DNA of 64,000 nt, taken from the NCBI GenBank assembly GCA_964016885.1, contig OZ024742.1, positions 320,974,001 to 321,038,000 of the forward strand. The letters are read 5' to 3'. Shown one piece after another: positions 30,163 through 41,881 of this stretch (positions within the stretch are counted from its first letter, which is position 1; each line of letters starts with the position of its first letter). The DNA is from Eledone cirrhosa. Lineage: Eukaryota. The notes beneath the pieces were generated by a model, which worked only from the letters and a program-made list of their open reading frames with translations, had not been told where the DNA came from and did not search any database. The position numbers and the translations under genes were made by a program.

Positions 30163-30209
30163 ATAGATAGATGAATAGATAGATAGATACATAGATAGAT
30201 AGATAGATA
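30163..30209. repeat. (GATA)n at the 3' flank of Tx1 copy 1
   Basis: direct reading. Confidence 0.95.
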
Positions 30210-30475
30210 TGTTTCTTTTATTTGCCACCAGGGCATCAAAAGTGGGACATGTACAATGGGGGGAGTTTACAAAACAAGGCGTCCTCAGTAAGAAGGAGGC
30301 AATAACAATATATAAAAATAAAATAAAATATAACAAAAAATAAAATTTATAACAAAGTCCTCAATAGAGAGGAGGCGCCTTGGGGGGTCGCACCCCCCCC
30401 CCAAAAAAAAGTGTGCAACCCTTTTCCTCAGGAGCACAGAGAAGGGGTGCTCCCTTGGTCTTTCATCTTCCTCAC

Positions 30476-33400
30476 CTATAGTCTGATGTAGAGTGAAGGC
30501 CCATTCACACGGGCAATTCTCGCCACTTTCACCCATCTTTCATAAAAACGGCTGGGGTGCAGCACCTCTCTCTCCATCCTGATCCTTCTTCCGAAATGAT
30601 ATCGGAAGAAACGGACCAGTTGTTGGCCAGAGGGAAAGGTGTCTGACCTCAGTCCTTTCAGACGCGTCCACCATACAACCTCTTTCGCCATGGCTATTAC
30701 GCACAGAAACACCGCCTCTTCTTCGTTTTTGAAGAGGGGAGGGGGCTTGATCGTTACAATAGACTCGGTGGTCAACCGGATCGGTCCCACCCTTGACAGC
30801 AGTTGTTCGACATAGCCCCACAGATCGGCAATGCCCGAGCAGTGTACCAATGCGTGTGCAATGGTTTCCTCGTCGCACACGCATCTGGAACATATCTTTT
30901 TCGAGGGGTCCCTACCCGGGCGCCCATGTCTGTAGAGCCTTTCTCGAACGGGCAGAGCCCTTCTGTAGCATTGCCAGGCCAGGGACCTCTGGAAGTTATC
31001 CATGGGTCCCGGGCTGAATGTCCTACCGAACAGGTTTGCCAGTTCGTCTTCCTCCATGCCTAGGGCTTCTCCGAGGGCGTCGTCGCACCTGCTAATCACC
31101 AGCCCTCTATAGAATGACGAGGTGGATTCTCCACTGACAGCCGGGTCCGCCTGCTAGAGAGCCGTAAGCGCCTGGGCACACTCGGTGTGCCAGGCGCCCA
31201 GTTTTCTCGGTCTTTGCTTGACCCAGGATTGCAGCTCGGTGAGTGAGACGAGTCTGGGAAAGGCTCGCCTCACAAACGGGGCCCACGCCGGTTGACCGGA
31301 GAGGAATACCTGAAGGTGCCGTAGCCTTAATGCGTGTTTACGTATCATTAGCCACGGCATCCCCAGCCCTCCTTTCGAAGGGTGTTGACAGCAGATGGGT
31401 CTCCTCACCATAGGAGCCCGCTTATTCCAAAGGAATTGGAAGGGTGCGCGCTCCATTTTGGCGAGCGTTTCCCTTGGGCAAGGCACAACGGTCAGGCGGT
31501 AGTAGATGACGGACGCTATATAAGTGTTCGCCACCTCCGCCCGACCTTTCAGGGACAGTTTACACTCGGCCCACTTCTGGGTCAGTGCAAACACCCTGTT
31601 CGTTACCTCACCCCAGTTCTTCTCCACCTGGAGGTCTGGTCCGAACCAGACCCCGAGCAACTTCACCGGGCCCTCCGTCCAGCGCCCGACGACGCCATCG
31701 GAGGGCATCGATCTGCCCCTCCACGTGCCGAGTTGCTGACCGATCGACTTGTCCCGGTTCAGCTTAGCCCCTGTAAACCTTTCGTACTCCTCCAGTAAGG
31801 TGCCGATCGCCCCGATTTCCGAGGCCGTCGACACCATTACTGTTACGTCATCGGCGTAGGCTGACACCGCTTTCCGCAATCCCGGTTCCAACGGGATGCC
31901 CTGCAACAACTCCAACTTCCGCAGCAGTGGCTCTAGAGTCATTACATACAGAAGGGAGGAGAGAGGGCACCCCTGTCGGATGGACCGCGCGATTTCGAAC
32001 GGCTCCGAGAGGTAGCCGTTCACCTTGACCATAGAGCAGATGCGGCTGCTGTGCATGGCATTGATCCAGCCCCTGAAAACGGGTCCGAAGCCTGCCGTCG
32101 CTAGCACCGCATCCAGGTAACCATGGTCGACCCTATCGAATGCCTTAGATTGATCCAAGTTGATCAGGGCCCCAACCCTCTCTATGATGTATCGCATGAG
32201 GTGGAGGTTGTCGTGGATGGACCTGGACGGGATAGCACATGTCTGCGCATCTCCCACCAGGTTTCCCACGACAAGCGCCAACCTCTTTGCTAGCACCTTG
32301 GCCAAAATCTGTAACTCTGTATTTAGCAGAGTTATGGGCCTGAAATTATTTATATCGTCCCCCTTGTTCTCGTCCTTCCTCACTAGCGTGACTACGCCCT
32401 TGGTCACAGCACAGGGAATTCTCCCGTTATGTTGCCAGTTGCAGTAGACCGCCTCGAGGAGATCGGGGAACAAGTCCGGCATAGCTAGATATAGTTCGTA
32501 TGGAAGACCATCGAGACCCGGGTATTTGCGCTTGCCGCATTGGCTCAGCACGTCCTCTATCTCAGCGGCTGAAATCGGCTCCTCGCAGGACTTCGCCTCC
32601 CTGTCCGAGAGACGGACCAGTTGTTGGCCAGAGGCCCCCCGCCCCTTCCGAACAATCCGGCAAAGTGCTTTTGAAAAGCCTCGCACATCTGCTTAGGTTC
32701 AAGGATCACCCGTCCATCCTGATCTCGCAAAGACCGGATAGTGGATCTGCTCCCTCTTTTGGCTTCTGTCACGCGGGCTGAGCTAACAGCTTTGGTCCCC
32801 TCGTTTCTCAGAGCACGTATTTTGCTTCGGACGATGCAGCCTTCGTGTTTCGCGTCGAAGAACTGGCCCAGGGCCGTTCTCGACGCTAGCACTCTGGCCA
32901 CGTCGCCGCTTCTAATTGCCTCTTCTACACTATCTACCAACTCCCTTTCCTTCCTATTTCTATTTGAGGCTAACTCCTTACTAAATTCTATAGAGACTAC
33001 TCTAATCTCTCTTTTGAGAGATCCCCACCACCTGCTGTTGACGATGGCGCCCGTCAACCGCTCCTTAACTAAAGTGCTAATCCGGTCCCTCTAAGCCTTA
33101 CTTGCCGGTAAGGACAAGTTGAGCTTCCAGTAACCGGGTCACTGTCTATGAGTTCTGTCAAGGTTGACCATGCAGGTCACTAACTTGTGGTCTGAATAGT
33201 CAACCATGAACATTTTTGGACAACTTAAAAGTCCTTATCCTTAATTCTAACTAAGAACCTATCTAGGTACGACCTAGATGATCCGCTACGATTTGCCCAA
33301 GTCCAGGTTGGCGCCGTCGGAAAATCTAGTCGATATCTATCGACCAGGTCAAATCGACCAATTAACCCTTTGAGGCCATTACACCCCTCTCTATCGGGAC

Positions 33401-39710: not shown

Positions 39711-41627
39711 TCACTCACCCTTCGCCTCCTGGGGACCAGGCCGCACGATTTCCATGGGGGTGTTGGAGGGGTTGTCTGGATGGGTGGTGGTTTCCGGCGG
39801 GGTGGGGACGCAGATGTTTGGTGGGGTGGGGTCTGGTGGGATGGGGGTGTCTGGGGTGGGGAGGCATTTGAGAAGGACGCGGTTGAGTGGTTTCACGCAG
39901 GAATTCCCCACATCCTTCTCAAATGTTTCTTTTAGGGACCTATAAGTTTGTATAGGGACCCTAATCAGTTTTAGGTTCATTTTTTTGCTATTTTTTATAG
40001 AGTGGGCGAAAGTTTTCCCTTCGGTGAAAGCCGAAGGGTCGTTCGTAATGGTCTCCATTAGTGTTTTGTTTTCAGTGTTTATGTAAGTGTAAGTGTAATT
40101 TTCTTGTGTTGTGTTTGTTTTTGTCTGTAGTTCTTGTGTGTGCTTTCGTTTTGTTGTAGGTATTTTGTTTTCAGGAGGTGGGGGTTTTGTTTGTGATATT
40201 TTTGTTGTTTGTGTTGGTGGTTGTATGTTTGTGGTAGTGTTTGCTGGTTTTTTGCTTTTGTGATGTCTTTTCTTTCTTTTCGAGCGATGGGGTTCTCCCT
40301 CGTCTTCACTGGGTGATGGCGAGATAGCCTCATCTGTTGTATCGTCTGTGTGATTGGGGAGGGGTATGTCTTGGGGAGCTGTTGTGTCTGTATGTGATTT
40401 TGCAGTGGTTTTAGGTGGAGTGAGGTTGGGTGGGACTGTGTTTGTTGTGGTTATTTTTGTGTGTTGGTGTTGTTGTTGTAGTGATGGTGTTGGTGGTTGT
40501 GTTGTTTTGATGGGTGTTGGCAGAAGAGCCTTTTTTTGGTTCATTAGTTTAGGACAGGAAGCCCTCAGGTGACCCCTGCTAAAGCAATGGTAACATGAAG
40601 GCCGCCTACCCTCAACCGAAAGGTTTATGTAGGTAAGTCCGTCCAGGAGTACACGCTGTGGGATCATAGCTATTCGCTCTGGGCTCATTTGCACCAGAAC
40701 TTCAATGCTAGTCCCATTGAATACATCTCTGGGGGACTTGCCTACTGACAGTATTCTGTCTTCATCAAAATTGATGAAGCCGCACAGTATCCACCATATG
40801 TTCACCTTTGGTGTGACACTTGTGATTCTGATCTTTTGTGTCCTTTTTCCCATGTATGTAGGGAAAAAGGTGTACAGGTTGGATACAATTGGCGACACAG
40901 AGTAATTTTGGGCCGTCAATTGATCCTTCATCAGTACCGAAATACTCCCAAAAAGTTTGCTTCTTTGAATGAATGCAATATCATTCATTGAATCTTTGAA
41001 AACCAGTTCAATATCTTTCTGTGACAATTGGACTGGTTTTCGGGTAGAATTGGAAACTGTCCTAAAAACTATCGTTTTGAGAGCAGTTTCCTTGCGAATT
41101 TCTACCGGAGAATTGATGCTGAAAGCACCATTTTTTTCGAAGGTGACATATCTCTTAGCGTCCTTTAAAAGGTGTTCAGCATTTGTTATGTCGAGATATA
41201 TCAATTGTTCTTTCTTTTGAACTTTCTCCGCAAAGGAGATTTTTGGTTTCTTTGTGGAATCCGTATTGGTGGTGTTGTCATTATTGTTGTTATTCTTGTT
41301 TTTATTCTTGTTGTCACCGATGTTGGTATCATCCGTATTTTCCTTGGTGTTGTTGTTGTCTTTGATGCTGGTGTTATTGGCGTTGTCTTTATTTTTTTCT
41401 TTGTTGTTGTTATCATTGTTGCTTTTATCATCATTATTGGTTTTGCTGTTATTTTTGTTGTCATTGAGCTGTTTGGTGTCATTTGTGTTGTTTGGATGTG
41501 AATTCGTTTTTTTATTTTCATTTTGTCTTTCCATCTCTATAGTATCTAGTGAAGAAGACGTTGTTGACTGCGAGCTTTGTAGTCTTACCGCCTCTCCACC
41601 ACCATTATCGTTGGACGCAGCGTTCAT
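39711..41627 (-). CDS. ORF1 nucleic-acid-binding protein with CCHC knuckle (638 aa)
   Basis: CYHCFSRGHLRASC; N-rich N-terminus; basic KRKKR segment; aligns with ORF1 of copy 1. Confidence 0.9.
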   Translation of the reverse strand: MNAASNDNGGGEAVRLQSSQSTTSSSLDTIEMERQNENKKTNSHPNNTNDTKQLNDNKNNSKTNNDDKSNNDNNNKEKNKDNANNTSIKDNNNTKENTDDTNIGDNKNKNKNNNNNDNTTNTDSTKKPKISFAEKVQKKEQLIYLDITNAEHLLKDAKRYVTFEKNGAFSINSPVEIRKETALKTIVFRTVSNSTRKPVQLSQKDIELVFKDSMNDIAFIQRSKLFGSISVLMKDQLTAQNYSVSPIVSNLYTFFPTYMGKRTQKIRITSVTPKVNIWWILCGFINFDEDRILSVGKSPRDVFNGTSIEVLVQMSPERIAMIPQRVLLDGLTYINLSVEGRRPSCYHCFSRGHLRASCPKLMNQKKALLPTPIKTTQPPTPSLQQQHQHTKITTTNTVPPNLTPPKTTAKSHTDTTAPQDIPLPNHTDDTTDEAISPSPSEDEGEPHRSKRKKRHHKSKKPANTTTNIQPPTQTTKISQTKPPPPENKIPTTKRKHTQELQTKTNTTQENYTYTYINTENKTLMETITNDPSAFTEGKTFAHSIKNSKKMNLKLIRVPIQTYRSLKETFEKDVGNSCVKPLNRVLLKCLPTPDTPIPPDPTPPNICVPTPPETTTHPDNPSNTPMEIVRPGPQEAKGE

Positions 41628-41845
41628 AACGTAATCAAAATTTTACAATATTTTTTTCCAAGATTCGATGGAGAAAAATTTTTTAAATGGATATTCCGCC
41701 CCTGTAGGGGCGAAAATGAGTTGACCCACCACCTGAAGGTCCAGACGGGTGGTCAAGTTACACAATGATATAAAATTGAACTAAAAACTCACGTTTTTTC
41801 CTTACATAAATTAACGGAAACTTCTCCGCGAAGTGACACACGTCT

Positions 41846-41881
41846 GATAGAGAGATAGATAGATAGATAGATAGATAGATA
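41846..41881. repeat. (GATA)n at the 5' flank of Tx1 copy 2
   Basis: direct reading. Confidence 0.95.

What the first reader, a model, noticed from the sequence alone, without database searches (positions are those of the whole stretch)
30163..41881. Two diverged full-length Tx1-clade LINEs stacked in one (GATA)n microsatellite; one is intact: candidate (TATC)n-specific retrotransposon
Seen: (GATA)n at 30163-30209, 35913-36001 and 41846-41881 brackets both elements. They have the same orientation, 3' ends AATAAA(A)GAAAY running straight into (TATC)n with no poly(A), and TATCTCT at both 5' junctions. ORF1s and UTRs are strongly diverged, so these are independent insertions, not a tandem duplication. 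Copy 2 has unbroken ORF1 (638 aa) and ORF2 (1145 aa). Known: Tx1-clade APE elements include target-specific families, e.g. Kibi at (TC)n and Koshi at (TTC)n. Inference: a (TATC)n-targeting lineage with a possibly active copy. I do not recall a described GATA-targeting family but cannot search.
Basis: partly seen in the sequence, partly recalled or inferred. Interest (0 to 1): 0.82.

Follow-up and report, generated by a model that had tools for sequence, protein, structure and literature searches.

The report
Octopod LINEs targeting GATA microsatellites
Two related but separately evolved full-length jumping genes (LINEs), one with all its reading frames intact, sit head-to-tail with a GATA repeat at every junction, which likely marks a retrotransposon lineage, probably from an octopus relative, that aims at GATA microsatellites, a target not found in the papers searched although microsatellite-aiming relatives are known from fish and crocodiles.

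Summary
Two L1/Tx1-type LINEs lie on the minus strand (30210-35912, 36002-~41852), with (TATC)n at all three junctions and no other such array in the remaining 52 kb. Copy 2 has open ORF1 (638 aa) and ORF2 (1145 aa, catalytic residues present). Copy 1 is broken in both ORFs. ORF2 dS is 0.56 and dN/dS 0.17, so these are two lineages, not a duplication. The closest named relatives are from Argonauta (63-73%). In public runs the family is abundant and mostly 5'-truncated, and 4 of 12 displayed joints run from a truncated 5' end into the TATC run. That supports targeting, but there is no denominator, and template jumping could give similar joints. An older relative in the window ends in a different repeat, (CAT)n after removing a SINE by eye, and has no repeat at its 5' end. 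Best reading (0.7): a (TATC)n-targeting Tx1-type lineage that works like Kibi/Koshi. Tx1 membership is likely but the tree support is weak, and activity is untested. No genome or Repbase was available, and L1-Tx1 families are already annotated in Octopus vulgaris. Verdict: new target variant of a known kind.

The parts
30163..30209 (.). Imperfect (GATA)n/(TATC)n array at the 3' junction of copy 1
30210..35912 (-). LINE copy 1, full length, disabled
   Evidence: 81% nt identity to copy 2 over the 3.7-kb ORF2 region; homologous 5' UTR
30476..33866 (-). Copy 1 ORF2 (APE-RT-CCHC), broken: frameshifting deletions near codons 213 and 412, two in-frame deletions, three premature stops
34069..35700 (-). 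Copy 1 ORF1, 543 aa to a stop; CCHC knuckle at 328; the C-terminal part continues in another frame
35913..36001 (.). Perfect (GATA)22 array between the 3' end of copy 2 and the 5' end of copy 1
36002..41852 (-). LINE copy 2, full length, both ORFs open (5' end between 41845 and about 41852, because it merges with the repeat)
36240..39677 (-). Copy 2 ORF2, 1145 aa: APE endonuclease (22-227), RT (511-755, YADD), zf-RVT and CX2CX8HX4C finger
   Evidence: Pfam; alignment to human L1 ORF2p, E 2.6e-50
39711..41627 (-). Copy 2 ORF1, 638 aa: Asn-rich N-terminus, predicted RRM-like region, CX2CX4HX4C knuckle at 345, Pro/Thr-rich tail
   Evidence: Atlas look-alikes zf-CCHC/RRM/ZCCHC3, scores 0.89-0.92, a lead only
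41846..41881 (.). (GATA)n array at the 5' junction of copy 2; the sequence beyond it is not a LINE 3' end
13744..14831 (-). Older, 5'-truncated, internally deleted relative (61-65% aa in its two longer segments) with the same terminal motif, not followed by TATC; comparison case outside the finding

Best explanation
Two full-length L1/Tx1-type LINEs of separate lineages sit head-to-tail with (TATC)n at every junction, likely because each was inserted on its own into a GATA microsatellite that this lineage is inferred to target. Shown: the architecture, an intact APE-RT-CCHC ORF2 in copy 2, divergence under purifying selection, and TATC next to 5' ends. Inferred mechanism, by analogy with target-primed reverse transcription in the Tx1 clade: the ORF2 endonuclease would nick the GATA strand of an existing array. 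The RNA, ending ...AAUAAAGAAAY and probably a few UAUC units read through from the flanking array, would pair with the freed 3' end and prime cDNA synthesis. Any target-site duplication would be hidden in the repeat. Each insertion leaves TATC on both sides, so the site stays a target and a second subfamily can stack beside the first. Order of insertion is not shown; copy 1 is more decayed and so probably older.
For: (1) Three of three junctions carry the array, against 0 of 165 arrays elsewhere in 52,282 bp. A tail alone explains the two 3' arrays but not the array at 41846-41881 nor the exact abutment of copy 1's 5' end. (2) The 79 bp beyond copy 2's 5' array does not resemble the 3' end of any of the three LINEs (479, 127 and 353 of 500 shuffles score as well), so that array is not another copy's tail. 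(3) Over 1124 ORF2 codons, dS 0.56, dN 0.095, dN/dS 0.17: two lineages that kept the same terminal repeat. Endonuclease domains are 164/213 identical with a near-identical loop before SYLDR. (4) Laying runs X1, X4, X6, X21 on copy 2 (interpreted): of 12 rows shown in table 5c (341 in all), 4 join into the GATA run at 35986/35987. Three come from internal points 704 (X1), 1303 (X21, 79 reads) and 2864 nt (X6) from the 3' end, one from a 12-nt stub. The element has no internal TATC run that could mimic this. (5) Depth in X1 falls from 553,460 in the 3' bin to 8,162 near the 5' end, as for a large 5'-truncated LINE family (not a copy number). (6) Precedent: Tx1-clade Kibi (TC)n, Koshi (TTC)n and crocodilian (TTCC)n/(TTTC)n families (PMC4494074).
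Against: (1) No denominator. Joints into TATC are visible only because the repeat was in the reference, 329 of 341 rows were not shown, and the tool masked 41841-41893, so 5' junctions of full-length copies were not seen. (2) The joints may continue into another copy's 3' end, which template jumping between tailed RNAs would also give. (3) The third relative in the window has the same terminal motif but no TATC, and no microsatellite at its 5' junction near 14831. It is old, 61-65% aa identical and internally deleted. (4) Letters at the truncated junctions are not in one register (0 to 12 extra letters). (5) None of the 80 distant relatives fetched (24-44% best-segment identity) shows a TATC array. 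(6) Microsatellite tails without strict targeting are common in RTE LINEs, including octopus RTE-2_OV (PMC6007223, PMC9115989 passages). (7) One locus, noticed after the fact.
Confidence: 0.7

Rival explanations
1. (TATC)n is only a 3' tail made by slippage. The tandem arose by template jumping or chance insertion, and the array at copy 2's 5' end is coincidental.
For: No poly(A); microsatellite tails are common in other LINE clades. The third relative lacks a 5' repeat. The joints could be tail-to-truncated-head chimeras.
Against: It needs an unrelated GATA array exactly at copy 2's 5' end where none occurs in the other 52 kb, and that array is not preceded by a LINE 3' end. The two copies are different subfamilies in different states of decay, which fits a single jumping event poorly.
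Confidence: 0.15
2. A loose preference rather than strict targeting. A relaxed endonuclease nicks widely, and pairing of the RNA tail selects whichever ATC-core repeat matches, so sister families drift between (ATC)n and (TATC)n and many copies land elsewhere.
For: The third relative reads GAAAT+CAT, then a SINE, then about 11 ATC units. The junction register varies. A tail-pairing model is proposed for RTE elements (PMC6007223 passages).
Against: Two lineages at dS 0.56 keep the same repeat. In Tx1L and R1-clade elements specificity is attributed mainly to the endonuclease (PMC4494074). The (CAT)n reconstruction is one copy, made by eye.
Confidence: 0.13
3. Tandem duplication of one element together with its tail, followed by decay.
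For: Same orientation and similar length, with repeats at the junctions that could seed unequal crossing-over.
Against: dN/dS 0.17 with copy 2 still intact, ORF1 proteins only 42% identical, UTRs 52-60% in global alignment. Neutral divergence of dS 0.56 would not leave two open ORFs.
Confidence: 0.02

Closest known systems
Kibi (TC)n and Koshi (TTC)n, teleost Tx1-clade elements (Kojima and Fujiwara 2004; seen only as cited in PMC4494074 and PMC3812793)
   Same: Two-ORF APE-RT LINE of the L1/Tx1 type inserted within a microsatellite; the sense-strand target contains TC.
   Different: The target unit is TATC and the host is probably an octopod mollusc. Kinship with Kibi/Koshi could not be tested because no named sequences were available.
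Crocodilian Tx1 families preferring (TTCC)n/(TTTC)n, e.g. Tx1-1_Crp, Tx1-2_AMi (PMC4494074)
   Same: Tetranucleotide microsatellite preference in the Tx1 clade.
   Different: Those targets are all-pyrimidine and the families are from reptiles; here the unit is mixed (TATC) and one copy has open ORFs.
L1-Tx1 families annotated in Octopus vulgaris (PMC13282606)
   Same: 80 L1-Tx1 families covering 56 Mb, 13 of them with 421 recent insertions; this family or a relative may well be among them.
   Different: The word 'target' does not occur in that paper's main text, so no target preference is reported there; its library sequences could not be compared.
Keno (U2 snRNA) and 5S-rRNA-associated Tx1-type elements
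   Same: U2- and 5S-flanked relatives were recovered as loci and fall in the same broad part of the RT tree.
   Different: Different targets, about 29% identity, separate well-supported clades.
Waldo (ACAY), Mino (AC), Dong (TAA), Togen (TG) (PMC3812793, PMC4640811 passages)
   Same: Microsatellite-targeting non-LTR elements.
   Different: Other clades (R1, R4 and NeSL-related; the R1 and R4 labels partly recalled) and other repeat units.

Membership tests
L1 group non-LTR retrotransposon | ORF2 with N-terminal APE endonuclease, RT and C-terminal CCHC finger, behind a separate ORF1 | tested here: met
   Pfam PF03372, PF00078, PF13966; best solved-structure match is human L1 ORF2p, E 2.6e-50, against R2 at 3e-22; CCHC motif
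Tx1 clade | ORF1 with a CX2CX4HX4C knuckle and an RNA-binding domain (definition recalled) | tested here: met
   Knuckle present in both ORF1s (Pfam zf-CCHC only E 0.042 in copy 1, below cut-off). The RRM-like part rests on an Atlas lead only; no sequence homologs found.
Tx1 clade | RT phylogeny groups with Tx1L/Keno/Kibi rather than with L1 proper | tested here: inconclusive
   The window copies form a 100-support clade with Argonauta and unnamed ENA proteins. This lies in a 38-row set (SH-aLRT 83, unresolved inside) with U2- and 5S-flanked elements and a medaka protein, apart from plant and fungal L1s (FastTree). No named Tx1 or vertebrate L1 reference was in the tree.
Target-specific Tx1 family (Kojima's criterion) | More than 20% of copies flanked by one type of sequence (PMC4494074 methods) | not testable with these tools
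   No genome is held; read laying shows only the top rows. In the window, 2 of 2 close copies meet it and the one distant relative with a 3' end does not.
Microsatellite-targeting element | The same repeat on both sides of full-length and of 5'-truncated copies | tested here: inconclusive
   Met for both full-length copies; 4 of 12 displayed joints for truncated copies; template jumping not excluded.
Kibi / Koshi | Insertion in (TC)n or (TTC)n | tested here: not met
   The flanks are (TATC)n. Not filed as Kibi or Koshi; it works like them.
Kibi / Koshi | Sister relationship in the RT tree | not testable with these tools
   No named Kibi or Koshi sequence was retrievable (searches give no such names).
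Active autonomous element | Transcription, insertion polymorphism or retrotransposition in an assay | not tested
   ORFs are open and catalytic residues present; no RNA run was laid.

The most novel reading that the evidence does not exclude
Octopods carry a large, recently active radiation of microsatellite-specific Tx1-type LINEs whose sister lineages have switched target between (ATC)n and (TATC)n. Coexisting subfamilies stack in the same array and both exploit and multiply GATA repeats. This would be the first such system reported in molluscs as far as the searches reach, and a natural series of closely related endonucleases for finding the residues that read a repeat unit.
Probability: 0.25. 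Interest if true: 0.65.

Novelty: new variant of a known kind. Interest (0 to 1): 0.48.

Why it matters
The review passage read here says the mechanism of microsatellite targeting by APE-type elements is not well understood (PMC3812793). An intact element with a new repeat target, a diverged second lineage with the same target, and a possible (ATC)n sister family would make the question testable: does the endonuclease or the RNA tail choose the repeat? It would extend Tx1-type microsatellite targeting from vertebrates to molluscs, and it would bear on why cephalopod genomes are so rich in microsatellites and on the reliability of GATA markers there. It is not a new kind of system: the strategy is known from Kibi, Koshi, Waldo and Dong.

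Tried and rejected
No whole genome is held, so flanks could not be tabulated. The search for related loci with ORF2 alone found nothing in metagenomes (17 stretches matched a pattern, none confirmed). With alignment A1 it returned 80 of 359 loci, all distant (24-44% best-segment identity), none with a TATC array. Viral contigs gave nothing by protein or by 3'-end pattern. No RNA holder was listed; this is not evidence on expression. The ORF1 core found no homolog (0 of 901 candidates). A single-sequence AlphaFold model of the endonuclease had mean pLDDT 39.8 and was not used; ORF1 was not folded. Three look-ups of earlier findings returned nothing. Eight literature searches showed no GATA/TATC-targeting LINE; 'GATA repeat' + 'non-LTR retrotransposon' + 'insertion' gave 0 papers. 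The supplements of PMC4494074, which hold its target alignments, could not be read, and its tree figure listing targets is not held, so a TATC-targeting Tx1 family could be listed there. Rejected: tandem duplication; the 5' array as another copy's tail. My note that copy 1 ORF1 is intact was wrong. An empty-site test was not attempted: the one read-laying run covered only 35986-41990.
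Full report
Observation. GATA arrays lie at 30163-30209, 35913-36001 and 41846-41881. Between them are two minus-strand elements of 5.7 and 5.8 kb. Their 3' ends run from AATAAA(A)GAAAY through AT into (ATCT)n without poly(A), and their 5' ends follow TATCTCT. The arrangement is not background: among 165 perfect short-unit arrays of 16 bp or more in the other 52,282 bp of this repeat-rich window, none is of the AGAT class.

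Anatomy. Copy 2 encodes ORF1 (638 aa) and, 33 nt later, ORF2 (1145 aa). ORF2 has Pfam Exo_endo_phos, RVT_1 and zf-RVT. It aligns over residues 4-856 to human L1 ORF2p (E 2.6e-50), with the endonuclease motifs (N10, E39, GDWN, SYLDR, SDH) and YADD in place. Both ORF1s have a CX2CX4HX4C knuckle. The ORF1 core has no sequence homolog in the search run, but its Atlas look-alikes are CCHC/RRM/ZCCHC3-type proteins (0.89-0.92, a lead only). Copy 1 has two frameshifting and two in-frame deletions and three stops in ORF2, and a frame change late in ORF1.

Independent origin. The ORF2 regions are 81% identical at DNA level. Over 1124 codons dS is 0.56, dN 0.095 and dN/dS 0.17; ORF1 proteins are 42% identical and UTRs 52-60% in global alignment. 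The two therefore diverged as active lineages, not after a local duplication. Their 5' UTRs remain homologous to the very end (0 of 500 and 2 of 1000 shuffles), so both are full length, and part of the shared TATCTCT may belong to the elements.

Host and clade. The closest named relatives are Argonauta hians proteins (63%; 62% and 73% partials); an Octopus bimaculoides fragment is 55% identical. An octopod host is inferred, not shown. In an IQ-TREE run on 48 of the 153 RT-region rows (chosen by me as representatives), the copies group with Argonauta (99) and then with unnamed ENA proteins of about 40% identity (100). That clade sits unresolved within a set (83) holding U2-flanked and 5S-flanked elements (Rfam, 9 matches in 20 loci scanned of 80) and a medaka protein, away from plant and fungal L1s. 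This fits Tx1, but no named Tx1 or vertebrate L1 reference was in the tree, so membership is likely rather than shown.

Target or tail. A tail explains two of the three arrays. It does not explain the array at copy 2's 5' end, whose upstream 79 bp does not resemble a LINE 3' end, nor the exact abutment of copy 1's 5' end on the middle array. For copies elsewhere I had one laying of 4 of 23 listed runs on 35986-41990. The family is abundant and 3'-biased: X1 depth is 553,460 in the 3' bin and 8,162 near the 5' end, while single contigs have depth 7-24 (the tool warns that this is no copy number). Of 12 displayed rows of joints with letters between (341 in all), 4 lead into the GATA run: from points 704 (X1), 1303 (X21) and 2864 nt (X6) from the 3' end, and from a 12-nt stub (X6). 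In element orientation these are 5'-truncated copies preceded by (TATC)n, as targeting predicts. The limits are real. There is no denominator, since junctions into unique DNA cannot show as joints. The tool masked 41841-41893. The short side may continue into another copy's 3' end, which template jumping could also produce. The extra letters are not in one register.

Evidence against. An older relative at 13744-14831 (61-65% aa in its two longer segments) has the same terminal motif but is followed by CAT, a SINE and about 11 ATC units, and it has no repeat at its 5' junction. Removing the SINE by eye suggests an (ATC)n tail or target. This could mark a sister family with another specificity, or a merely loose preference. 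A fourth fragment (61468-61899) has no termini. None of the 80 distant loci has a TATC array. On activity: at several sites nearly all laid X1 depth differs from copy 2, and 3 of 5 such sites checked are nonsynonymous. Copy 2 thus carries private changes or comes from another species than X1, and open ORFs do not prove competence.

Mechanism. Most likely (0.7) is target-primed reverse transcription at a nick in the GATA strand, with specificity mainly from the endonuclease as stated for the Tx1 clade (PMC4494074), probably helped by pairing of terminal UAUC units. Duplications would be hidden in the repeat, and each insertion would regenerate targets, allowing stacking. Nicking, pairing and the order of insertion are inferred. 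Rivals: tail only (0.15), loose tail-guided preference (0.13), duplication (0.02).

Literature seen. PMC4494074: parts 1-4 of 5 of the text; the tree figure is not held and supplements were unavailable. It gives Kibi (TC)n, Koshi (TTC)n, crocodilian (TTCC)n/(TTTC)n and the 20% criterion. Passages only: PMC3812793 (list of microsatellite-targeting elements, no GATA), PMC13282606 (13 recently active L1-Tx1 families with 421 insertions; its supplement row gives 80 families and 56 Mb; 'target' 0 occurrences), PMC8967140, PMC9115989 (no Tx1), PMC6007223, PMC4640811, PMC5753468, PMC8869645, PMC3747384. Kojima and Fujiwara 2004 was not seen. Eight searches showed no GATA/TATC-targeting LINE. Repbase, Dfam and most subscription papers are outside the library, so prior description there is quite possible. 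The labels Mutsu, Dewa and CRE, the ORF1 definition for Tx1, and the SINE label are recalled and come from no call.

Verdict. A real feature: probably a (TATC)n-targeting Tx1-type lineage of octopods that works like Kibi/Koshi but is not one of them by target. New variant of a known kind; interest 0.48. Still, the intact copy, the second lineage and the possible (ATC)n sister make it a useful test case for how APE endonucleases read microsatellites.

Noticed in passing
window 13540-14831 (-): Older Tx1-type relative whose 3' end is followed by CAT, a 5'-truncated SINE with an (ATT)n tail, then about 11 ATC units; possible (ATC)n-associated sister family.
   Followed up: partly
window 61468-61899 (+): Internal ORF2 fragment of another relative (66% aa), cut at its 3' side by a short inverted-repeat element (about 61900-62010).
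   Followed up: partly
window 41943-42656 (+) and about 28000-28150 (+): C-terminal fragments of a LINE with a restriction-like endonuclease motif (KRPDG...WDATC; CRE-like, label recalled). The first begins about 60 bp beyond the 5' GATA array, and other copies continue upstream of 41943 (loose ends).
   Followed up: no
window 4929-7422, 16899-24963, 43414-45352: Very long degenerate (TGG)n/(TGT)n arrays of 2-8 kb.
   Followed up: no
window 7664-8494: 4.4 head-to-tail copies, 99% alike, of a 190-bp unit resembling the SINE found at 13600-13740 and 43120-43300.
   Followed up: no
run X4 on window 39671-41840: One run holds low-depth (6-9) contigs about 98% identical to the 5' half of copy 2, while its 3' depth comes from diverged relatives; possibly a single close or orthologous copy.
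   Followed up: no
L005 (1-123, 782-896, 5806-5947), L007, L013, L001, L002, L014; L017 5892-6010: Metagenome contigs with Tx1-type elements next to U2 snRNA (Keno-like) or 5S rRNA sequences.
   Followed up: partly
L038 4174-4209; L037 4285-4338; L066 1-76; L067 1-52: Distant relatives whose contigs end in (ATTG)n or (AT)n, or begin in (ATGT)n; further candidates for microsatellite tails or targets.
   Followed up: no
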